64,000 nucleotides of DNA. It comes from a virus. Position 1 is the stretch's first letter; the number at the start of each line of letters is the position of its first letter. The notes beneath the pieces are model-generated. The model made no database searches, had not been told where the DNA came from, and saw only the letters and a program-made list of their open reading frames with translations. The stretch is taken from positions 64,001-128,000 of IMG/VR virus record IMGVR_UViG_3300033064_003894, one strand, 5' to 3'. Shown piece after piece: positions 2,743 through 62,904 of the stretch. Position numbers and translations under genes: made by a program.

Positions 2743-3264
2743 CAGAGCAATTCCTTCACGAAGACCCTCAAAAGTGCAAGTAGTTGACGTATAAGAGAAT
2801 TTTGAATCGAACTCTTTAATTCCATCTAGAGTCATAAAGTTAAAGGCTCCAATCCATAGTATTGTGCAAGATGACTTGTTAACGAGATTATTTTTCAATA
2901 AGTTAAGTCCCCTTCCCTTGCCAGCAAAGCGAGGAGCATCAACGATTATAAAATCGTAATTGCCTTCTAGTCCATCAAAGATCTGAGTTCCATCACAATC
3001 AATTATAGGCATATGCTCAATTACTATAGGAGAAGATGGATCGATCTTCTTTTGTATGTGAGACATGACAATCTCTTCTTCTTCTACGCATCTAATATTA
3101 TGCATATCCTGAAGACATGCAGCGATATTAGATGCGCCAAGAATAAGAATATTTTCAGGCTTAATCTTTTTTACAAGATTTCTTGAAAAAATACAAACAT
3201 CATCAGATGCTCCCCAAGCCTCTGGGGCAATCCGCATTTTCTTTATAGCTTCCGAGGCGATCAT
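2731..3264 (-). CDS. class I SAM-methyltransferase-like protein
   Basis: IKPENILILGAS and YDFIIVDAP motifs. Confidence 0.5.
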   Translation of the reverse strand: MIASEAIKKMRIAPEAWGASDDVCIFSRNLVKKIKPENILILGASNIAACLQDMHNIRCVEEEEIVMSHIQKKIDPSSPIVIEHMPIIDCDGTQIFDGLEGNYDFIIVDAPRFAGKGRGLNLLKNNLVNKSSCTILWIGAFNFMTLDGIKEFDSKFSYTSTTCTFEGLREGIALSFI

Positions 3265-3295
3265 TCGGACATTTTAAAGTGCACGTTGTTGAAAA

Positions 3296-3388
3296 TCAAC
3301 TAAAAATAACTGATCCTACTGCGACACCTATAAGAAAAACAACAATCTCTCTATTGTGCTCTCGAATGAATTGTTTAATTTTATCCAT
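3296..3388 (-). CDS. 30-aa small membrane protein (not in ORF track): MDKIKQFIREHNREIVVFLIGVAVGSVIFS
   Basis: Hand-translated ATG..TGA ORF with a hydrophobic C-terminal helix; fills an intergenic gap; TATAAT upstream on the minus strand. Confidence 0.55.
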   Translation of the reverse strand: MDKIKQFIREHNREIVVFLIGVAVGSVIFS

Positions 3389-3492
3389 CTGTAGTAGTTT
3401 GTTCTTTTGTCCCAATCTTAAAAGACAGAACGATGCAATTATAATATAACAAAAAAATTGGTTAATAAACTAAGATTTTTATTTAGCGTTAC

Positions 3493-4479
3493 TTAAGCCG
3501 AAACGCTTTGGGACGCTTCTTTTTTTACCCCTGAGGAAGATATATAAGATTTGATGATTTCCAACAGATCTGATGGAGAATACTTAGAGGCGTCTTTTGA
3601 TGGCGATGTTGCAGTTCCTCTGCTAGCCATCGTTCCTGATTGAGAGAAAAGCCAATTTTCTTCGTCTATTAAAGATCTAAGCTCTGACACGTTAACTTCA
3701 TATAGGTCTTTATTCCTTATAATGCCAATGTCATTATCCTGAGAATAGACTATTATGTCGACATTTTCTCTGAACAGTCTCTTAACTATGTGCTTACTTG
3801 CAAGCGCTTTACTTCCATCGGCAATTGCCATTATGAATCCGTTATGCTCAACAGTGACAATATTTTTGCAAGCATGTTTTGCTCTCTTGGTCGTAGTCAT
3901 TCTGAAAAGCATTCCGTCAAGGATCTCAAAGAGAACCTGTTGTATTGAAGACAGGCTTTCATCTGCGTCAGACTCTGACTCGTAAAGATTTTTAAGACTT
4001 TCAAACACGCACAGAAGGTCCACCATGTGTGGCAAGAAGTGAGTCTTTCTGTTATTGTTTGCCCAAGGCCCGTCTTCTGTAAGAGTCGCATTCAGATAGT
4101 TTCCAAGGTGCGCCATAGAAGAATAACCATTTAGTACATCAGCTACAGACGCATCAGTATTTGGATCTTCTGAAATATCTCTTACTGAATTTATAACCCT
4201 AGAGAAACACCCACGGGTTACAAAGATTGATTTTTTTCTTCCAGTTTCCTTGTCCGTTATTTTTATTTCTTCTGGACCATATCTAATCTGTTCGCCATTT
4301 ACGGCGTCTTTTGCTTGCAATCCAATTGAGACATCGTCATCTGACATGTCACTACCAGACCAATTATTAGACTCGTAGCAAATAGCTTCTTCTGGTATTT
4401 CAAACGCTCTGCAATATAGCCAAGCAGCTGCTGCGCCATCTAAGTTTAAATGCCTAGGAAGGATGATTCTTTTTTTCAT
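3493..4479 (-). CDS. hypothetical protein, MYG1/DHH-like (possibly degenerate)
   Basis: N-terminal IILPRHLNLDGAAAAWL and C-terminal WLFSQSGTMASRG resemble MYG1-type hydrolases. Confidence 0.4.
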   Translation of the reverse strand: MKKRIILPRHLNLDGAAAAWLYCRAFEIPEEAICYESNNWSGSDMSDDDVSIGLQAKDAVNGEQIRYGPEEIKITDKETGRKKSIFVTRGCFSRVINSVRDISEDPNTDASVADVLNGYSSMAHLGNYLNATLTEDGPWANNNRKTHFLPHMVDLLCVFESLKNLYESESDADESLSSIQQVLFEILDGMLFRMTTTKRAKHACKNIVTVEHNGFIMAIADGSKALASKHIVKRLFRENVDIIVYSQDNDIGIIRNKDLYEVNVSELRSLIDEENWLFSQSGTMASRGTATSPSKDASKYSPSDLLEIIKSYISSSGVKKEASQSVSA

Positions 4480-4931
4480 TGTATGTATGCCGACGCTTCT
4501 TTATACCCAGTCGGACGTGGGTCTTCAACGAGTACGTTTTGAACTTCGCCATGCACGGTTGTGTGTATAACTAACTTTGCTTTCTCTAAGTCTTTAGAGC
4601 TTAAAGGAATTTCGTATTTTGTGTATATGTCTATTATTTTGACTAGCTCTAATACTATACGAGACACCTGAGGTCTGGCTACTATTAGCGCAGCCCTTGC
4701 AGTATCTGGGTCTACTGATTTACATTCCTTTTCCTCAAAGGCTACTCCACCAAGATTGCCTTGCGATGGATCTCTCAAAAGTGAAAAACCCTGAAAGATC
4801 TTAACAGAAGGGAGTCCAGACCCAGGAGGAGGAGTCGCAATTATTGTATTTAGAGATATAAAAATCTGATTTCCAGGGACTTCTAATATGGTTGGCTGAT
4901 CTGGTTTTGATTGGTTCATTTTATTTACCAC
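4476..4931 (-). CDS. hypothetical protein
   Basis: 151-aa ORF coupled to the next gene. Confidence 0.55.
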   Translation of the reverse strand: MVNKMNQSKPDQPTILEVPGNQIFISLNTIIATPPPGSGLPSVKIFQGFSLLRDPSQGNLGGVAFEEKECKSVDPDTARAALIVARPQVSRIVLELVKIIDIYTKYEIPLSSKDLEKAKLVIHTTVHGEVQNVLVEDPRPTGYKEASAYIQ

Positions 4932-4938
4932 ACGAGAT

Positions 4939-5712
4939 GTGGTAACATATTATACCTTTGATAGGGGTAGTTTTTACATGAGGAAGACAAAACTAAAAGG
5001 AGTGATAAGTGACATTCATGTTCCATTTCACGATGTAGCAGCTACTGCTCAAGCTATTGAGTATCTTAAAGATGCCGGAATTGATGAGCTAACGCTTCTT
5101 GGAGATATCTGCGATTTTATGGCAGTGAGCAGGTTTAGCCGTTCTCTTGAAAGAAGGGCTGGACTTAAATATGAATTAGACTCAACTATAGAGTTCTTGG
5201 ACGTTGTAAGGCAGACATTCAAAAAAATAAAAATAAATTATGTATGCGGAAACCACGAAGAGCGATGGGAAAAATATCTTATGGATAAGAGCCCAGAGCT
5301 CATAGGTTTAGAAGGAATGACAATACAAGAAAAGCTTAGGCTAAAGGACTTTAATATACAGTGGCATGAGACAAAATATATAGACAATGACATGGTATTT
5401 TATCATGGAGTCGGGCGCTCGTCAGGTGACGCAGGAGGTAGCGTAAAGCTTTGGCTTAACCACTTTATGACATCAGTAATAATTGGACACGTGCATAAGC
5501 AAGCAGTTCTGTACAAAAGAACTGGCACTGGAAGGGTTTTAGTAGGAATAGAAAACCCAACTCTTAGCCAGCTTGACCCAGAGTATGAGCCGACAGGAAC
5601 AAGCAACTGGCAGCAGGGAGGAACAGTATTATTAATGGATTACGCTAACAACGTAAATATACCCTATCCATTCCAAATATGTAATGGGAAACTGTACGCA
5701 TCAAAATTTTAA
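4939..5712 (+). CDS. calcineurin-like metallophosphoesterase; likely start ATG 4978
   Basis: SDIH, GDICD, GNHE, HG, GHVH motifs. Confidence 0.9.
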   Translation: MVTYYTFDRGSFYMRKTKLKGVISDIHVPFHDVAATAQAIEYLKDAGIDELTLLGDICDFMAVSRFSRSLERRAGLKYELDSTIEFLDVVRQTFKKIKINYVCGNHEERWEKYLMDKSPELIGLEGMTIQEKLRLKDFNIQWHETKYIDNDMVFYHGVGRSSGDAGGSVKLWLNHFMTSVIIGHVHKQAVLYKRTGTGRVLVGIENPTLSQLDPEYEPTGTSNWQQGGTVLLMDYANNVNIPYPFQICNGKLYASKF

Positions 5713-56326: not shown

Positions 56327-56755
56327 CTATTCAGAGATAGACCATAGTCTAACTCTCTTAATTGTATGAAGCTTTTTCCTTGCTTCTATCATGGCTCCCT
56401 GGTTTACAGTAATGCTAAACCTTGTTTGAAGTCCAGAGTGTATGAAGTTAGCAACACGAGTTTTGTTTGGGTCATCATTGCATACAACCCTAAAGATTAT
56501 ATTCTTGATGGGGAAATCATTACAACAAAACGATTTAGACTCTGAACCGATTAGACCTCTTTCGTAAGCCTCAATATCAGAGATTGAATGAAATATACTA
56601 GATCTTACCCTGTTAGGTCTTTTTAAAAAAATTGATATAGTAAGTATATCTCCGCTACATTCGCAGTAGCGGGACATTAAATCTGAAGTTTCAATCGACC
56701 CTACGAACAGGTCGTTTTGTTTTTCTTTTAGCAGTTCTTGGTTTGGAAACATCAA
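56327..56755 (-). CDS. hypothetical protein (last gene of the Ubl operon)
   Basis: 142-aa ORF overlapping the E1 3' end. Confidence 0.4.
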   Translation of the reverse strand: MMFPNQELLKEKQNDLFVGSIETSDLMSRYCECSGDILTISIFLKRPNRVRSSIFHSISDIEAYERGLIGSESKSFCCNDFPIKNIIFRVVCNDDPNKTRVANFIHSGLQTRFSITVNQGAMIEARKKLHTIKRVRLWSISE

Positions 56756-57464
56756 GAGATTCTACTATATTTGAGGACTCTGCTTCAACAACTTTTATGT
56801 GAATCATTTGCTCCATGTCATAAAACTGCTCGAACGGATTCTTTTTGCCTAGAATCGCATTACGAACGCCTGATCCAATAATACCTGCTATAGTGAAAAC
56901 AGTAAAGACAATTGCCTTTTCTGCACACGGAAGAGGAGTAACTGGACGATTAAGGCTTTCTATGTATTTAGATGCGAGAGTTGGTCTATCTTCTGAACTC
57001 ATCATGAAGAAGGAAGCTCCAGTAGAGCCCATTCTGGCATCAATAAGATAAGATGATTTTGATCCAGACCGAGAGAGAAAGACTGATCGTCTTGAATCTA
57101 TTGAATCTAGAGCAAACACTAGAATGTCAGTTTCTCTATCCATGGACTGGTTTGCAAATTCAACTACCGGATTAATGATTAGTTCGTTTCCGCAGAAATA
57201 TTTTAACTTTTCAGCAAGAGCTTCTGACTTTTGTTTACCTATGTCACTTTCAGTAAAGAACTGACTACCAAGGTTAGCCCTTTCAACGGTGTCCATATCT
57301 ATAAGAGTTAGGTTGCTAATTCCCATCTTTGCAAGACAGAAGGCGGCATTGCTGCCTATTCCTCCGCATCCGACTACGGTTACGCTCCTGTCTTTGTAAA
57401 GCTCAGGATCAAATAATCCAAACTGTCTAGAGAATTTTTCTCTATTTACTTCTAGATCTTCCAT
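56691..57464 (-). CDS. E1/ThiF-family ubiquitin-like activating enzyme
   Basis: FSRQ, VVGCGGIGS, IDMDTVERANLGSQ, DSIDSR, IDARMG, candidate catalytic Cys in PLPCAEK. Confidence 0.92.
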   Translation of the reverse strand: MEDLEVNREKFSRQFGLFDPELYKDRSVTVVGCGGIGSNAAFCLAKMGISNLTLIDMDTVERANLGSQFFTESDIGKQKSEALAEKLKYFCGNELIINPVVEFANQSMDRETDILVFALDSIDSRRSVFLSRSGSKSSYLIDARMGSTGASFFMMSSEDRPTLASKYIESLNRPVTPLPCAEKAIVFTVFTIAGIIGSGVRNAILGKKNPFEQFYDMEQMIHIKVVEAESSNIVESLDVSKPRTAKRKTKRPVRRVD

Positions 57465-57465
57465 T

Positions 57466-59217
57466 TTAACTTATCGACTTTGCTAGTTTAACTGGTTCAT
57501 GCCTAACTATGCTTATAAGAGAGCTATTCTTTAATCCTATAGTCTTTATATATTTCAGAAGAGTATCTTCTGTCGAGCATTCATCCTCTACATCAGACAA
57601 GGGTATACCATTTTTCATTAAAGGAAGTAAGGAATAGGAAAAAGCGGCGATGCCTGTCAAATCTAATGATGACGCAGTTCCTCTAATTATAGACTCTATC
57701 GACTTTATAGTCTGAAGCATTATTGGCTCACTAATTACCTCTATTCGTTTAGATGCCGATGTTTTAGACATAAGTATCAAAACTTCTTCTGTGAACATTC
57801 CACATAGTGCGAATTTATATATTAATCTTTCTTCCTCAAGCGTAAAATTACCAATGCCTCTAATAGATTGGAAGGACACTTTTAATTTATCAAGCAGATG
57901 GTTGTCTGAGTCATACAAAGACCGAACTAAGTACTTAACAGAAATACTATCTTCTTGCTGCTTCTCTGTATCTCCAACAGAGAGGTATGAAGGAACAAAG
58001 ATCTTTTTTGTTGAGTACAGAGCTTCTGTGCCAAACGATGCCGCAATGTCATACATCGAGAATGGAGCAGATACACGCGAAAAGGCATCCTTGTAGAACT
58101 CTTTTTCAACATTTGACTTTATGTTCTTAATATTACATGCACGGCCAGAATCTTTTGCTAAGTGTATATTTTCAGATATACTCTTTAATAGGTCATTTCC
58201 AGCAGAAGTTGCTTGTATTGATGGGAGTGCGGACAAAGGAGAGTCCATAATGTACAGCATTTCTTTATCTGGATTTGCCTGAAACATTGCCACAATCATT
58301 GAGGCTAAGTATTTGCCAACTGTTCCACTTTCAACAAACAGCATTCTCTCAAATGGAACATCTCCAGAGTAATAATTCCTAAGCGCCTCGACTAGTGCGT
58401 CTTTGCCGCTGCATTTCAGACCGTCTTTGTGTATAACAAACGATACAAGTTGCTGTAATGTGAACGTTTCGTAATTGTTTCTTAATTCATATGCCCGTGT
58501 CCGAAGTGACGGTAAAATGTACGTATCTTGATCGAAACCTTTCGCAACTTTAGGTTTTTCGAAATATCCTGGAAATAAATCTAAGTCCTCGTCTTGGGTT
58601 GGATTTACCCACGGAGTGGGAGGAGCGTAGCTCTTTTTTGTTACTTTCTCTTTTATCTCTTCTACCGTCTGATCGTCTAATTCGTCGATAATAGCGATAA
58701 CAGGACACTCAATTGCGATCCTTATAGGACTAAATAGGTCTATTCTGCCAATTATCTCTTGCCTCTTGTTGAATACGCATGACAGAAAGAAACTTGAGTC
58801 TTCTCCAAGAGCTATAATTCCTTTTTCGTCTACGTCTGAGATGAACACTGGCATGTTTACGTGACTATGTCCCCAGTACCTTAGCCTAGGGTATATTGTC
58901 TTAGAGAACTCTTCAAATTTCCCTTCTTTTGTAAAAGACTCAATAAAGTCTGCAAACATTTCTTTTGTTACATTTACACTAGCACCGTCCACAAGTTGTG
59001 GCGGGATATAGAGCTTATCAACGACAAAAGTTTTCTTATCTTCTAATACATCTGCAGTTCCTAGCCAAGCTATTTCTGTGTCTACATGTTTAGTAATTGC
59101 CTGCTGCTTAATAAGCAAAGAGTTGCTCATTCTTATTGAGTAGCCCATTGAGGCCCCATCTTTTAAGCTTATGATAAACTTTTCATTTGACTTTATTTCA
59201 GTCTTCATTCTCGCCAC
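57466..59217 (-). CDS. JAB/MPN+ (JAMM) metallopeptidase with long C-terminal extension
   Basis: EIAWLG..YIPPQ..WGHSHVNMPVFISDVD (E...HxH-x7-S-x2-D). Confidence 0.88.
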   Translation of the reverse strand: MARMKTEIKSNEKFIISLKDGASMGYSIRMSNSLLIKQQAITKHVDTEIAWLGTADVLEDKKTFVVDKLYIPPQLVDGASVNVTKEMFADFIESFTKEGKFEEFSKTIYPRLRYWGHSHVNMPVFISDVDEKGIIALGEDSSFFLSCVFNKRQEIIGRIDLFSPIRIAIECPVIAIIDELDDQTVEEIKEKVTKKSYAPPTPWVNPTQDEDLDLFPGYFEKPKVAKGFDQDTYILPSLRTRAYELRNNYETFTLQQLVSFVIHKDGLKCSGKDALVEALRNYYSGDVPFERMLFVESGTVGKYLASMIVAMFQANPDKEMLYIMDSPLSALPSIQATSAGNDLLKSISENIHLAKDSGRACNIKNIKSNVEKEFYKDAFSRVSAPFSMYDIAASFGTEALYSTKKIFVPSYLSVGDTEKQQEDSISVKYLVRSLYDSDNHLLDKLKVSFQSIRGIGNFTLEEERLIYKFALCGMFTEEVLILMSKTSASKRIEVISEPIMLQTIKSIESIIRGTASSLDLTGIAAFSYSLLPLMKNGIPLSDVEDECSTEDTLLKYIKTIGLKNSSLISIVRHEPVKLAKSIS

Positions 59218-59274
59218 AAATCGATGACAAAAAAATTAATTATATTTGTTTTAAATTTTCTAGCCGATTAACGG

Positions 59275-59487
59275 CTACAGACCAGCGTCGAAGTTAGGGG
59301 CCAACATCACGTGGGACCCCGGCTGGAGCTGTACGCTCTTGTCTGCGCGAGTCCCGTTAAGGAGAACGCTGTAGTTTACCTTGGTGCTGCCAGAAGCGGA
59401 GATTGCATCCTGCACGGTCATGCCGGGCTGGAACGGAACTCTCACTTGATCTTGGCCAGGCACCTGTACGATGATTTCATTTGCCAT
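59275..59487 (-). CDS. ubiquitin-like beta-grasp protein (ThiS/MoaD-like), C-terminus ...FDAG-L
   Basis: 70 aa; GMTVQDAI, VLLNG, LQPGSHVML; AGGA Shine-Dalgarno. Confidence 0.85.
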   Translation of the reverse strand: MANEIIVQVPGQDQVRVPFQPGMTVQDAISASGSTKVNYSVLLNGTRADKSVQLQPGSHVMLAPNFDAGL

Positions 59488-59580
59488 GTTGTATTTCCTT
59501 CTTGTAAGTTTGTTGGGATTACTGAAATATTAAATAGGACTAACATGTGATATTATTCCGTACAAAGTGAAAATTTTTAG

Positions 59581-61479
59581 TTAGAATCTTGGCTCAACGT
59601 CTCTAATTTCAAAGACGCCCAGGTTTACGTCTATCGGATCAGCTATAACTTGTTGATGTCTGTTTTCTACTTCATGCCAAGCATAGCCAACATAGTTGGC
59701 ATCGCCGACTTGAGCATCGCCGACTTGAGCATCGCCGACTTGAGCATCGACGACTTGAGCCTGCTGATGCATCTCTATGAACCTAGCCAGAATAGGTTCA
59801 TTAATATTCACGTTGAGTGGTTTTGGATACTGTTTGTTATATACATCCTTTAAGTCTTTTTCTAATTTCACAAGATCTGCATGGTTAAATAAGGATGACA
59901 TCAAATCATTAATAGCAAATATTATCTCTGGCTCTTTCACCCCGTAGAAGAATGAATACTTAAGTGAAGCAGCAATCTCGGTTGTGTTGTCAATCCCTTC
60001 ATCTGAGCAAAAGTCTGAAACATAATTAATTGCGCCAACAAGATTTTTAACATTAAAGAGAATACCGTTTGAGACAAACTTACCCATAGAGATTAGCTTA
60101 CTAGACCTTATTTTTACAATGTCATTTTTAAGAGCGACAACCTTATTAGAAAAAGCGGCACTTGACAAAGTTTTACACCACAGTGAGCAAATTGTTTCGA
60201 CAGAATAATATTGTTCAGGGTTGATATAGCCCGAATCTTTGTTGTAAGTGTTCATGACCTCTGACAATAAGCTCATCATAGAAAAGATGTCACCTGTTGC
60301 GCAATATGACTTAAGCGCTCCTTCGTACGATCCTAAGCAAACTTCGTTATCCACACTTACGTGTGGATGTCTAATAGTCTCCCTAAGCCCGTGATCAGGA
60401 ATCTCAGCTCGTTCACCACATGAAGGCCCGGAAATCAAATCCGCATATGCACAAACTCTATTCGACTCAAGACTATATACGACCATTATATCGTAAAAAC
60501 CGACACTAGTAGGAGATACTTGAACACTTATCATATCTGTTTGTGACGAGACTTTTTTTATAGCACACTTGATGGTTAATCTAAATTTAACCTGGTATGC
60601 CTGAGACAAAGAGATGAATTTTGAAATGTCACGATTGAGTAAATCAGTTACTGAGCATCTTTTGCTAATATAATTGTCAGAAGAATGATCTCTATTTGAG
60701 AGTCCACTACTAAATGGCGAGCATATAACATTTTTTTTGCTTTCATTTATTAGATATCCATTAGAGATTATAGAGAATTCTTCTAACTTACAGTTATTTG
60801 TATGTGAAAAATTATTACCTTTATATATAGAAGAGTCTACGCCGTCAATTATAGCTGCAGCCAATGAAGCACGCACTATCGCTCCATTTATATTTGCCAC
60901 ACTATGAGCATACGTTTGTTTATTATATCTAGAAATGTTCAGGTTATGAATAGCTGAACTGTTAGAAGAAATCAAATATGGTCTAGGAATAATATTAAAG
61001 CATTCCTTACTTACTATTACGCCATCGTACATCTTAAGTAGACGAATAAAACTCCTAATCTCCTCGGATGACACATAAAGAACAATGTTTGTTAAATATA
61101 TCCCCTCTATTGACGAAACGAACTTCATAGTTATTGGTATTTTCTTTATTAAATAAAAATCATAAAACGCGTCATTAGATCTTTCAAATGGGAAAACTGT
61201 AATATCAAACGAATTCATTGGACCTGCACCAGATTTTATAGCAGAAGGAATTAGTGCATTGATGGTTAATGTTAATACACTTTTATATGAACCAACAGAC
61301 CGCCTTGTCTTTATATTAACTGTCTTTATTGGCCTGCCATAGAGAATAGTTACTCGTTTACTTTTCAATGGCAAGGCATCGTTCTTTTTTGGAGACCAAT
61401 GCAGTTCAGAAGTATTAACCACTGCGTGAAATAGTTTGTTAATATATGAAAGGTTGGTACGGCATGTAATTAATGCCAA
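59581..61479 (-). CDS. large protein with prokaryotic E2-like (UBC-fold) domain
   Basis: RHPHVSVDNEVCLG (cf. HPN(I/V)...CL; Cys codon 60337-60339) followed by a helix and TYN. Confidence 0.7.
   Translation of the reverse strand: MALITCRTNLSYINKLFHAVVNTSELHWSPKKNDALPLKSKRVTILYGRPIKTVNIKTRRSVGSYKSVLTLTINALIPSAIKSGAGPMNSFDITVFPFERSNDAFYDFYLIKKIPITMKFVSSIEGIYLTNIVLYVSSEEIRSFIRLLKMYDGVIVSKECFNIIPRPYLISSNSSAIHNLNISRYNKQTYAHSVANINGAIVRASLAAAIIDGVDSSIYKGNNFSHTNNCKLEEFSIISNGYLINESKKNVICSPFSSGLSNRDHSSDNYISKRCSVTDLLNRDISKFISLSQAYQVKFRLTIKCAIKKVSSQTDMISVQVSPTSVGFYDIMVVYSLESNRVCAYADLISGPSCGERAEIPDHGLRETIRHPHVSVDNEVCLGSYEGALKSYCATGDIFSMMSLLSEVMNTYNKDSGYINPEQYYSVETICSLWCKTLSSAAFSNKVVALKNDIVKIRSSKLISMGKFVSNGILFNVKNLVGAINYVSDFCSDEGIDNTTEIAASLKYSFFYGVKEPEIIFAINDLMSSLFNHADLVKLEKDLKDVYNKQYPKPLNVNINEPILARFIEMHQQAQVVDAQVGDAQVGDAQVGDANYVGYAWHEVENRHQQVIADPIDVNLGVFEIRDVEPRF
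59699..59760 (-). repeat. 15-bp in-frame tandem repeat (AQVGD x4)
   Basis: GCATCGCCGACTTGA repeated; one copy has a substitution. Confidence 0.9.
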
Positions 61480-61535: not shown

Positions 61536-62381
61536 TTATGGCTTTACTCCTAACTCTCCCATGCAGGTCGTGTAAAATTCACACATTGTCTTTTTACATA
61601 AGAAGGAGTTTGTATTATATGCGAATATCTCTGGGTTTGATATGCCGGCCTTAATGAAGCTAATTGCCCAGTTTATTTTTTTCTCTACAAAGCCAAGGTG
61701 AGCAGCAGTTACAGGCTCTTCTATTTGTATTACCTCAGGATCTCCTCGCTTCTTAAGAAGAGCAATATCATACCTTGTAGACTTACTGTTTATACCATTC
61801 TTGTTCGCTAAATAGGCATACGAAGTATTCTGCCATCTAGACTCTATATTTCCCCATCTTTTCCAGGCGGTCTTGTTGTCTATAACAACATTGGATGTGT
61901 CAATTGTGTCTATATATCCATGGAATGGGATCTCTAGAGAATCGTCAGAAAGATGCGCCTGGACGTGTGACGGCTCTACGCTAGGGAAGACTTCTCTGTT
62001 AAACAAGATAATTCCTTTATGACAGCTTGATTTTGCAGTGTCAATCTGTTCTCCCTTAGAGCCCTCATCATCAAATATGATTTCTCCACTTTGCTCATTT
62101 ATATACGCTTCTGCGTAATCAGTTAGAACAGATACAGGCAAATCCTTTCCTTCTCTCTTTTTTGACCGGTAGTTAAAATCTAAAGTTTTATCGAAGGCTG
62201 ACCCTACAAACATTTTAAAGCTATCCCTTGTTATGGGGCGTTGCTGTAAAATATATCTCTTGTAGAATAGCTGAGGGCAAATCTCAAGAGAGGAGATTGC
62301 CGAATACGACAACCTCCTCACAGGATACAAACTACCTTTTAGAGAGTTTCGTTCTTCAAATTCATTAGAAGGGTGGGTCAT
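61536..62381 (-). CDS. PD-(D/E)XK nuclease (RecB/Cas4-like)
   Basis: LSYSAI..CP, GSAFD, GYIDTI..VIDNKT, QNTSY, C..MCEFY..C; start moved to ATG 62381. Confidence 0.85.
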   Translation of the reverse strand: MTHPSNEFEERNSLKGSLYPVRRLSYSAISSLEICPQLFYKRYILQQRPITRDSFKMFVGSAFDKTLDFNYRSKKREGKDLPVSVLTDYAEAYINEQSGEIIFDDEGSKGEQIDTAKSSCHKGIILFNREVFPSVEPSHVQAHLSDDSLEIPFHGYIDTIDTSNVVIDNKTAWKRWGNIESRWQNTSYAYLANKNGINSKSTRYDIALLKKRGDPEVIQIEEPVTAAHLGFVEKKINWAISFIKAGISNPEIFAYNTNSFLCKKTMCEFYTTCMGELGVKP

Positions 62382-62904
62382 TGGCTGGGCGATAGGTGCC
62401 CTCTCCGTAAACTGGTCTACGTTGACCCTCTCCGTAAGCGGGACTACGTTGATTCTGCGGAGGATCATTATATCTAGGCTGAGATAGCTGAGCTTGTCCC
62501 TTATTCTGACTCTGATCTCTTGGATTAAGGTCTTCAAGCTGCCCAATTGCTCCAGGCGGGTGATGTTTCACATTATAAAACACTCCTCCGTCGTTACGTT
62601 GAGAGCCATGAGACACCTCAAGGTCAAGGATCTTGCCTTTCAGCTGATCAGTTTCAAGACCTCCATCCATGCCAATAGCGTCGCAAAGCTCGCGAAGCTT
62701 CCATCCGAATTTCTTAGTATTGTATGAGCAGAATAATGATCCTGCGTTTGTTCTATAACCTATCCTTACAGAGTAGCTTGCATCTGGTTTAACAGAGGCA
62801 TTGCAATAGAATATCTCTGCTCTAAAGTTACCTTTCGGGTGTATGGGGTCTTTATCCCCTTTATTTTGTTGTTGTCCATCAGGACTATTCAGCGGAATTT
62901 TCAT
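62365..62904 (-). CDS. single-stranded DNA-binding protein-like (DUF669-type)
   Basis: PKGNFRAEI, WKLRELC, Q/P-rich linker, C-terminal NDPPF. Confidence 0.65.
   Translation of the reverse strand: MKIPLNSPDGQQQNKGDKDPIHPKGNFRAEIFYCNASVKPDASYSVRIGYRTNAGSLFCSYNTKKFGWKLRELCDAIGMDGGLETDQLKGKILDLEVSHGSQRNDGGVFYNVKHHPPGAIGQLEDLNPRDQSQNKGQAQLSQPRYNDPPQNQRSPAYGEGQRRPVYGEGTYRPANDPPF

What the first reader, a model, noticed from the sequence alone, without database searches (positions are those of the whole stretch)
56327..61479. Complete phage-encoded ubiquitin-like conjugation cassette (E2, Ubl, JAB, E1) beside the tail tube gene
Seen: four consecutive minus-strand genes encode an E2-like domain with HPHV...CLG, a 70-aa beta-grasp Ubl, a JAMM peptidase with intact E...HSH...S..D, and a ThiF/E1 with GxGxxG and a candidate catalytic Cys. 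No ThiG, MoaE or cysteine synthase is nearby, which argues against sulfur transfer. Established: E1+E2+JAB+Ubl operons are bacterial protein-conjugation systems, and the Bil anti-phage system conjugates a Ubl to phage tail proteins. Inference: here the phage itself carries the whole pathway, possibly to tag host proteins, modify its own virion, or out-compete or strip host Bil/CBASS Cap2-Cap3-type conjugates. The E2 (632 aa) and JAB (583 aa) each carry several hundred residues of unrecognised sequence that could supply target specificity in place of an E3.
Basis: partly seen in the sequence, partly recalled or inferred. Interest (0 to 1): 0.92.

Follow-up and report, generated by a model that had tools for sequence, protein, structure and literature searches.

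The report
Phage-encoded ubiquitin-like protein-tagging cassette
An uncultured 140-kb tailed phage carries its own four-gene ubiquitin-style tagging kit (tag, activating enzyme, carrier enzyme, trimming protease); such kits have been studied only in cells, mostly as anti-phage defence, and what the phage tags is unknown.

Summary
Four consecutive minus-strand genes at 56691-61479 encode four parts.
- E1: a ThiF-type enzyme (Pfam 2e-27) with a family-invariant Cys180.
- JAB: a JAMM peptidase with invariant E48, H117, H119, S127 and D130. The family profile hits Rpn11 at 2.5e-5.
- Ubl: a 70-aa beta-grasp protein. The family profile hits archaeal SAMP2 at 9e-7. It ends Gly-Leu.
- E2: a 632-aa protein whose core (residues 262-432) has a diverged UBC fold with an HPH-x7-C-x-G active-site loop.

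The cassette is a divergent member of a large family. At least 85 IMG/VR viral contigs carry JAB, E1, the same E2-like core and a Ubl. Those Ubls end Lys-Gly plus a 1-3-residue cap and are sometimes 2-3 tandem copies. Only 16 hits appeared in 185,579 prokaryotic genomes, all on MAG contigs.

The link to the tail genes is local to this phage; relatives place the cassette in replication modules. No sulfur-transfer partner is present in the record.

I found no paper describing this. Earlier reports of this same scan describe the same kind of cassette on at least seven other phage genomes. The target and biological role remain unknown. I class it as a new variant of a known kind.

The parts
59581..61479 (-). 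E2-like protein, 632 aa (P0001). It has a lineage-specific N-terminal region (residues 1-261), a UBC-like core (262-432) and a lineage-specific C-terminal region (433-632).
   Evidence: ORF and translation. No Pfam, PADLOC, PHROG or NCBIfam hit. The family profile matches it at E 5.9e-17.
60184..60696 (-). UBC-like E2 core domain (residues 262-432).
60331..60369 (-). Predicted E2 active-site loop, H371-P-H373 x7 C381-L-G383. Cys381 is the candidate catalytic cysteine.
   Evidence: In the family the His is kept in 89/89, the Cys in 88/89 and the Gly in 89/89 sequences. The profile aligns this loop with the HPN/HPH...Cys loop of UBE2W, UBE2D and UBE2L3.
59275..59487 (-). Ubiquitin-like protein precursor, 70 aa (P0003). 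It ends Ala68-Gly69-Leu70, so Leu70 is a one-residue cap.
   Evidence: Family profile A5 hits SAMP2 at 9e-7, and also RnfH, MoaD and ThiS. It is 91% identical to the L006 copy, which ends Gly-Leu-Asn. Family Ubls end Lys-Gly plus a 1-3-residue cap. The gene has 56% GC against 40% for the genome.
57466..59217 (-). JAB/JAMM metallopeptidase, 583 aa (P0002). The catalytic domain is residues 21-199 (58621-59157). Residues 200-583 (57469-58620) are an unexplained extension.
   Evidence: Invariant E48, H117, H119, S127 and D130. The profile hits Rpn11 at 2.5e-5. Pfam Prok-JAB matches weakly in 36 of 61 relatives. The extension gave no usable hit in the ESM Atlas.
56691..57464 (-). Minimal E1 (ThiF-type adenylating enzyme), 257 aa (P0004). 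The GxGxxG motif is at 57354-57371 and candidate catalytic Cys180 at 56925-56927.
   Evidence: Pfam ThiF 2e-27. PDB hits include Uba1, MoeB, MccB and UBA5. All NCBIfam hits fall below their curated cut-offs. Cys180 is invariant in 71 sequences.
56327..56755 (-). Unconserved 142-aa ORF that overlaps the E1 3' end. It is probably not part of the system.
   Evidence: No family hit. No homologue in 89 related loci.

Best explanation
The cassette is a phage-encoded ubiquitin-like protein-conjugation pathway.

Proposed steps, all inferred from homology:
1. The 70-aa pro-Ubl is trimmed by the JAB peptidase after Gly69, removing Leu70.
2. The small ThiF-type E1, probably a homodimer like MoeB and ThiF, adenylates Gly69 with ATP.
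3. The E1 takes the Ubl as a thioester on Cys180.
4. The Ubl passes to Cys381 in the HPH...C loop of the UBC-like E2.
5. The E2, whose large and fast-evolving N- and C-terminal regions stand in for an E3, transfers the Ubl to lysines of target proteins.
6. The JAB peptidase can probably also remove the tag.

The genes sit in a leftward block with a PD-(D/E)XK nuclease. In relatives they sit in replication modules. I therefore take the system to act inside the infected cell during early or middle infection, on host or phage non-virion proteins, and not as a tail-assembly factor.

What is shown: gene presence, catalytic motifs, folds, and family-wide co-occurrence. What is inferred: every chemical step, the timing, and the targets.
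For: - E1: Pfam ThiF 2e-27. Cys180 is invariant and the adenylation motifs are conserved.
- JAB: the JAMM residues are invariant. The profile hits Rpn11, BRCC36 and JAMM1.
- Ubl: the profile hits SAMP2 at 9e-7.
- Ubl ends: family Ubls are always capped after Gly and are sometimes 2-3 tandem copies, like polyubiquitin precursors. This gives the JAB peptidase an obligatory maturation role.
- E2: the UBC fold is recovered from two independent models. The HPH...C loop aligns with that of eukaryotic E2s. The Cys is kept in 88/89 sequences.
- Linkage: the four components co-occur in about 80-85 of 89 loci although gene order is shuffled. No fifth gene is conserved.
- Evolutionary rates: compared with relative L006, the Ubl is 91% identical, the JAB N-terminus 80% and the E2 C-terminal region 47%. 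That pattern fits a conserved tag with a rapidly changing specificity module.
- Sulfur transfer: the record holds no ThiG, MoaE, rhodanese or PP-loop ATPase.
Against: - There is no biochemical evidence.
- The window protein's own model has pLDDT of only 65.
- The window E2 has a degenerate form of the family's downstream N..D.AG motif.
- The Ubl's nearest solved relative, SAMP2, also works as a sulfur carrier.
- The record is only about 79% complete by CheckV, so a partner gene could lie outside it.
- The targets, the timing and the host are unknown.
Confidence: 0.65

Rival explanations
1. The chemistry is as in the best explanation, but the role is defence against competitors. In this reading the cassette is a Bil-like weapon that the phage carries to tag and disable structural proteins of co-infecting phages (superinfection exclusion).
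For: Bil systems have the same four part types and act by tagging a phage tail protein (10.1101/2023.09.04.556158; PMC11601596). The fast-evolving non-catalytic regions of the E2 (47% identity against 91% for the Ubl) fit an arms race. In this window the cassette abuts the tail genes.
Against: No PADLOC model hits the E2, JAB or Ubl. The E1 lacks the IAD-AAD-CYS architecture described for BilD. The family is nearly confined to viral contigs: 85 viral loci against 16 MAG contigs in 185,579 species genomes. It sits in replication modules and not in variable accessory islands.
Confidence: 0.15
2. Counter-defence reading. The JAB peptidase strips host Bil or CBASS (Cap2) conjugates, or the Ubl, E1 and E2 compete with or mis-tag host defence proteins.
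For: JAB enzymes reverse such conjugates in the host systems (PMC11601596). The cassette is phage-borne and probably expressed before the late genes.
Against: A stripping function would not need an E1, an E2 and a capped or poly-Ubl precursor. All four parts are conserved together. Nothing ties the family to hosts that carry Bil or CBASS; the hosts are unknown.
Confidence: 0.1
3. Sulfur-carrier system. E1 adenylates the Ubl, which becomes a thiocarboxylate used for thiolation of tRNA, DNA or a cofactor. The 'E2' would be a non-catalytic scaffold.
For: The Ubl profile's best solved relatives are SAMP2, MoaD and ThiS. The E1's nearest NCBIfam models are ThiF and MoeB. The phage encodes tRNAs according to first-reader notes, which I did not check.
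Against: The record holds no rhodanese, PP-loop thiolase, ThiG or MoaE. All ThiF and MoeB hits fall far below their cut-offs. The E2-like Cys and His are near-invariant. The capped and tandem Ubl precursors and the obligatory JAB partner are hallmarks of conjugation systems.
Confidence: 0.06
4. The E2-like protein is a UEV/RWD-type non-enzymatic adaptor. Conjugation, if any, would be E2-independent as in archaeal sampylation, with E1 transferring the Ubl directly.
For: The fold matches are only moderate and include RWD and UEV proteins such as Knl1, GCN2 RWD and VPS37A. The closest solved relatives of the Ubl and JAB are the archaeal SAMP2/JAMM1 pair, from a system that has no E2.
Against: The Cys is kept in 88/89 and the His in 89/89 sequences, in the loop that aligns with the E2 catalytic loop. 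The one Cys-less copy is a second paralogue next to a Cys-bearing one. That arrangement resembles an E2-UEV pair and implies the Cys matters.
Confidence: 0.08

Closest known systems
Bil (BilABCD, Type I/II; operon class 6d of Iyer et al. 2006) bacterial ISG15-like anti-phage systems
   Same: It has the same four part types: a Ubl, a UBC-fold E2 with a catalytic Cys, a JAB/JAMM peptidase and an E1. It encodes no E3, so the E2 is presumed to pick targets (PMC11601596).
   Different: This cassette is carried by phages, not bacterial defence islands. Its E1 is a single 257-aa ThiF domain, not IAD-AAD-CYS. Its E2 family matches no catalogued model. Its Ubl is a single SAMP2-like beta-grasp with a capped Gly, or 2-3 tandem copies in relatives. 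No PADLOC hit was found for the E2, JAB or Ubl.
Archaeal sampylation (SAMP1/2, UbaA, HvJAMM1/PfJAMM1)
   Same: These are the closest solved relatives of the Ubl (SAMP2, 9e-7). PfJAMM1 is among the JAB profile's hits at 7.5e-3, though Rpn11 at 2.5e-5 is the best. Both systems use a small ThiF-type E1.
   Different: Sampylation has no E2, whereas this family has a conserved E2-like protein with Cys and His. SAMPs end Gly-Gly uncapped or with short extensions. The E1 scores 36.8 bits against a cut-off of 450 for the UbaA model.
Type II CBASS Cap2 (E2-E1 fusion)/Cap3 (JAB) and the 6A-MBL and Bub (6E) operons
   Different: Here the genes are separate, with no CD-NTase and no DUF6527. The chemistry is Cys-based, not the Ser/Tyr oxyester chemistry of Bub. 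A dedicated Ubl is present.
PRTRC (ParB-related, ThiF-related cassette) of plasmids and ICEs
   Same: It is also a ThiF-type E1 in a mobile-element cassette. PRTRC_ThiF is among the E1 hits at 2.4e-13.
   Different: The score is 50 bits against a cut-off of 144.75. No PRTRC model hits the other three proteins. No ParB is adjacent.
Lambda/T1 tail-assembly TAPI (Ubl) and TAPK (JAB+NlpC) (Iyer et al. 2006, PMC1779556)
   Same: It is a phage-borne Ubl plus JAB pair.
   Different: The lambda pair has no E1 or E2 and lies inside the tail-assembly operon. Here the cassette is on the opposite strand from the tail genes and lies in replication modules in relatives.

Membership tests
Bil (BilABCD) | [quoted passage not shown] | tested here: not met
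   The E1 is 257 aa with one ThiF domain (residues 24-215). Family E1s are about 220-280 aa.
Bil (BilABCD) | A UBC-fold E2 with a catalytic Cys. | tested here: met
   UBC-like fold. Cys381 is conserved in 88/89 sequences. Catalysis itself was not tested.
Bil (BilABCD) | Sequence membership by defence-system HMMs (PADLOC). | tested here: not met
   No PADLOC hit for the E2, JAB or Ubl. The E1 hits only the nucleotide-binding part of Cap2-type 'E1-E2' models.
Bil (BilABCD) | Host-encoded anti-phage defence. | not testable with these tools
   The carrier is a virus record. The family is found in 85 viral contigs against 16 MAG contigs. No phenotype could be tested.
JAB/JAMM (MPN+) metallopeptidases | The E ... 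H-x-H-x7-S-x2-D zinc site. | tested here: met
   E48, H117, H119, S127 and D130 are invariant in 61 sequences. The profile hits Rpn11 at 2.5e-5.
E1/ThiF/MoeB adenylating enzymes | A Rossmann GxGxxG motif, adenylation motifs, and a Pfam ThiF score above cut-off. | tested here: met
   96.3 bits against a cut-off of 28.1. The motifs are conserved.
UBC/E2 superfamily | An alpha-beta4-loop-alpha fold with an HPN-like flap followed by the catalytic Cys. | tested here: met
Pfam UQ_con / Prok-E2_A-E | A match to the curated HMMs. | tested here: not met
   None of the 64 family members matches at E up to 0.1. The only link is an ESM Atlas lead to a cluster in which 39% of members carry Prok-E2_D (score 0.86).
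ThiS/MoaD sulfur-carrier pathways | A partner ThiG, MoaE, rhodanese or PP-loop thiolase. | tested here: not met
   None in the 139,837-bp record. The record is about 79% complete.
PRTRC | NCBIfam PRTRC models above their cut-offs. | tested here: not met
   PRTRC_ThiF scores 50 bits against a cut-off of 144.75. There are no other PRTRC hits.

The most novel reading that the evidence does not exclude
Tailed phages, including crAss-like and jumbo-size lineages, own a widespread and uncatalogued ubiquitin-like conjugation system: a polyubiquitin-like capped precursor, a minimal E1, a new E2 family and a JAB maturase. They would use it offensively during infection to tag host proteins or their own replication-stage proteins. 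That would be a prokaryotic-virus counterpart of ubiquitin-system manipulation by eukaryotic viruses and a mirror image of Bil defence.
Probability: 0.45. Interest if true: 0.9.

Novelty: new variant of a known kind. Interest (0 to 1): 0.74.

Why it matters
Ubiquitin-like conjugation in bacteria has so far been characterised as host defence (Bil, Type II CBASS, Bub). A complete, conserved and virus-owned pathway would show that phages also use protein tagging.

It would add three new objects:
- a new E2 family,
- a minimal E1 of about 225 aa,
- capped or tandem Ubl precursors.

The system is also small enough to test. The four proteins can be reconstituted in vitro. Distant versions occur in crAss-like phages. 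An annotation note cites a phiCrAss001 counterpart for the metalloprotease gene only, so target discovery there might be feasible if that phage proves to carry the set.

Tried and rejected
- **Direct family scans.** Pfam, PADLOC, PHROGs and NCBIfam scans of the E2, JAB and Ubl gave nothing above threshold.
- **Single-sequence PDB searches.** Searches with the E2 and JAB proteins gave only noise.
- **Large protein databases.** The word-indexed search of 5.8 billion proteins found no relative of the E2. The exhaustive HMMER search found only two fragments.
- **Isolate-phage searches.** Megablast of the cassette against INPHARED found no match. tblastn with the Ubl and with a central JAB member also found none.
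- **ESM Atlas.** It gave no usable lead for the JAB C-terminal extension and only weak leads for the E2. The extra domains therefore remain unexplained.
- **Promoter and terminator scan.** The counts were no better than shuffled sequence.
- **Retron link.** I tested this and rejected it for this genome: no RVT_1 is present.
- **Literature.** Searches found no paper on a phage-borne E1/E2/JAB/Ubl set. The library is incomplete, so this is not proof of absence.
- **Tail association.** I rejected it as a functional clue, because relatives sit in replication modules.
Full report
**Setting.** The window is bases 64001-128000 of a single 139,837-bp IMG/VR virus record. The record is linear and about 79% complete by CheckV. 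It is a tailed phage. The window holds a major head protein (phrog_2522, 9e-15), a tail sheath (phrog_2839, 2.8e-15) and a UvsX-like recombinase. The phage is far from any isolate: the sheath is at most 25% identical to those of Vibrio phage D181 and Salmonella phage Arash, and megablast of the cassette finds nothing.

**The observation.** Five minus-strand ORFs lie at 56327-61479.

- **E1 (56691-57464).** This is a 257-aa ThiF-family protein (Pfam 2e-27, 96 bits against a cut-off of 28). Its solved relatives are Uba1, MoeB, MccB, TcdA and UBA5. Every NCBIfam equivalog, including ThiF, MoeB, UbaA, PRTRC_ThiF and 6A-MBL Cap2, scores far below its cut-off. It is therefore a generic member of the superfamily and not an orthologue of a named enzyme.
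- **Ubl (59275-59487).** On its own it only brushes Pfam Ub-Mut7C (2e-3, below cut-off).
- **JAB (57466-59217) and E2 (59581-61479).** Neither hits anything in Pfam, PADLOC, PHROGs or NCBIfam.

**Relatives.** The JAB protein has distant homologues of 320-340 aa. Their contigs all show the same neighbourhood: a 340-465-aa unknown protein, the JAB protein and a ThiF protein, near DnaB and primase genes. Each upstream unknown protein shares the motif HPH[VI]-x(6-7)-CLG with the window E2.

A scan of IMG/VR with the JAB alignment returned 85 viral contigs, of which 80 were kept. Counts below are over the 89 related loci (L001-L089: nine metagenome contigs plus those 80 viral contigs).

- JAB and ThiF occur in the same locus in 85 of the 90 loci examined, these 89 plus the window, next to each other in the common gene orders.
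- An iterated profile of the E2-like core finds it in 84 of the 89 loci; the window's own E2 also matches, at E 5.9e-17.
- An iterated Ubl profile finds a Ubl gene in 79 of the 89 loci, as well as the window's own.
- Gene order varies. E2-J-E1-U occurs 28 times, U-E2-J-E1 19 times and U-E1-J-E2 18 times; the window has E2-U-J-E1.
- No fifth gene is conserved. The next commonest neighbour is a DnaB-like helicase, in 35 loci. The window's 142-aa ORF has no homologue and is not part of the set.

A scan of one genome from each of 185,579 prokaryotic species found only 16 hits. All are on MAG contigs, all 16 carry the JAB and E1 genes, and most also carry the E2-like and Ubl genes. The family is therefore essentially viral. 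The search patterns in the two scans differed slightly, so the two counts are indicative only.

**JAB.** Across 61 non-redundant sequences, E48, H117, S118, H119, S127 and D130 (window numbering) are invariant. That is the JAMM signature E...HxHx7SxxD. The family profile hits Rpn11 (2.5e-5), BRCC36, P. furiosus JAMM1 and CSN5. Pfam Prok-JAB matches weakly in 36 of 61 members. The window protein carries a further 384 residues (200-583) that relatives lack. No tool explains this region.

**Ubl.** The family profile's best solved match is P. furiosus SAMP2 (9e-7), followed by Haloferax SAMP2, RnfH, MoaD and ThiS. It is therefore a ThiS/MoaD/SAMP-type beta-grasp protein.

Only one of the 80 ends directly on Gly. 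Around fifteen loci encode two or three head-to-tail Ubl units, for example L008:1079-1705. This resembles a polyubiquitin precursor. It gives the JAB peptidase an obligatory role as maturase.

The window Ubl is the odd one out in several ways:
- It ends Ala-Gly-Leu.
- Its gene has 56% GC in a 40% GC genome, which places it in the top 1.65% of equal-sized windows.
- It is 91% identical to the copy in the related fragment L006. Over the same fragment the JAB N-terminus is 80% identical and the E2 C-terminal region only 47%.

A highly conserved tag next to a fast-changing E2 appendage is what a conjugation system with evolving target specificity would show. The GC anomaly is unexplained. It could reflect codon optimisation or a replacement of the gene.

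**E2.** This was the weakest link and also the finding's stated refutation test.

- **Sequence.** The family core has a near-invariant x-P-H ... C-x-G loop, with His in 89/89, Cys in 88/89 and Gly in 89/89 sequences. The single Cys-less copy is a second paralogue beside a Cys-bearing one.
- **Profile against the PDB.** Of the 38 weak hits (E 0.5-1.7), 35 are ubiquitin-conjugating enzymes. They align on strands 3-4, the HPN/HPH flap and the catalytic Cys, for example UBE2W HPHVYSNGHICL.

In the viral structure library the nearest models are uncharacterised proteins of uncultured Caudovirales. One of them is the 435-aa protein of crAss-like phage cr128_1 (E 0.018, probability 0.97). In that genome this protein lies directly upstream of a JAB-like gene (HSH-x7-S-x2-D) and a ThiF gene, inside the replication module.

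**E1 detail.** In 71 non-identical family E1s, the GxGxxG motif, the D-x-D-x-V-E-x-x-N..Q motif and the D..(x)..R motif are conserved. One Cys, window Cys180, is invariant. From my own knowledge, not tested here, it lies about where ThiF Cys184 sits. No CxxC zinc site is conserved.

**Sulfur transfer.** No rhodanese, PP-loop ATPase, ThiG or MoaE occurs anywhere in the record, while control genomes respond to the same searches. Together with the conserved E2 Cys and the capped or tandem precursors, this makes a pure sulfur-carrier role unlikely. I put it at about 6%.

**Most likely mechanism.**
1. The JAB peptidase removes Leu70.
2. The E1 adenylates Gly69 and forms a thioester at Cys180.
3. 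The Ubl moves to E2 Cys381.
4. The E2's own variable N- and C-terminal regions choose the target lysines. No E3 is encoded.
5. The JAB peptidase may also deconjugate.

Every chemical step is an inference from homology.

The cassette sits on the strand opposite the structural genes, downstream of a PD-(D/E)XK/Cas4-like nuclease (61536-62546). In relatives it sits in replication modules. This points to early or middle expression and intracellular targets, not tail assembly. I cannot tell whether the role is host takeover, regulation of the phage's own proteins, exclusion of rival phages or counter-defence. I give the generic conjugation reading 0.65 and list the role-specific variants as rivals.

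**Comparison with known systems.** The cassette works like Bil, with a Ubl, an E2, a JAB peptidase, an E1 and no E3. It fails Bil membership on E1 architecture and on HMM matches. It also differs from:
- sampylation, which has no E2;
- Cap2/Cap3, which is a fusion acting on a CD-NTase substrate;
- Bub, which uses oxyester chemistry and a DUF6527 protein;
- PRTRC, whose models score below their cut-offs;
- the lambda TAPI/TAPK pair, which has no E1 or E2.

**Novelty.** My literature searches found no description of a phage-borne E1/E2/JAB/Ubl set. The library is partial.

After I had reached the results above, this scan's own notebook showed that follow-up agents have reported the same kind of cassette on at least seven other phage genomes. 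Their reports include the Gly-Asn ends, the replication-module position and the crAss-like and jumbo-phage versions. This instance is therefore not the first sighting within the scan. It is a divergent member, with an expanded E2 and JAB, an Ala-Gly-Leu tag end and a GC-rich tag gene.

No reverse transcriptase is present in this genome.

I class the finding as a new variant of a known kind.

Noticed in passing
L008:1079-1705 (also L032:2264-2896, L001:5493-5924, L080:7485-8573): These are tandem poly-Ubl genes with two or three head-to-tail beta-grasp units. Each unit ends Lys-Gly-Asn, like a polyubiquitin precursor. They lie next to the E2/JAB/E1 genes.
   Followed up: partly
window 59275-59487: The Ubl gene has 56.3% GC in a 40.3% GC genome, which is the top 1.65% of 213-nt windows. 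Its neighbours have 36-39% GC. The cause is unknown: codon optimisation or gene replacement.
   Followed up: partly
L106 (NC_055885.1, crAss-like phage cr128_1) 2276-5660; L107 (Dulem virus 41) 2901-5651: crAss-like phages carry a distant version inside their replication module. In cr128_1 it comprises a 435-aa protein whose predicted structure matches the E2 model, a JAB-like protein (H-x-H-x7-S-x2-D) and a ThiF protein, and no Ubl was detected by my profile. In Dulem virus 41 only the JAB-like and ThiF genes were shown.
   Followed up: partly
L004:6967-7998, L002:6363-7757, L001:6637-7989, P0014: Many E2-like relatives end in clusters of CxxC pairs. These could be a zinc-ribbon or RING-like add-on, that is, a possible built-in E3 element. 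The window E2 lacks this.
   Followed up: no
L061:2961-4568 and L061:4569-5930: Two adjacent E2-like paralogues. The second lacks the conserved Cys, which is reminiscent of E2-UEV pairs.
   Followed up: no
L047:8091-12008, L054:3597-7514, L068:8044-12006, L075:8043-12002, L080:8661-12110, L088:759-5831: The E2-like core is embedded in giant proteins of 1149-1690 aa on contigs of about 117-180 kb. The three of them scanned (L047, L088, L080) gave no Pfam hit.
   Followed up: partly
window 59698-59760: The C-terminal region of the E2 contains a short Asp-Ala-Gln-Val-Gly repeat (x3) of unknown meaning.
   Followed up: no
window 61536-62546: A PD-(D/E)XK/Cas4-like exonuclease gene (Pfam 9e-11) lies directly upstream on the same strand. 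crAss-like relatives also have a PD-(D/E)XK exonuclease a few genes away.
   Followed up: no
Its identity rests on position only.
   Followed up: partly
window 56327-56755: A 142-aa ORF overlaps the E1 stop by 65 nt. An internal Met27 start would begin 14 nt after the E1 stop. It has no homologues anywhere I searched.
   Followed up: partly
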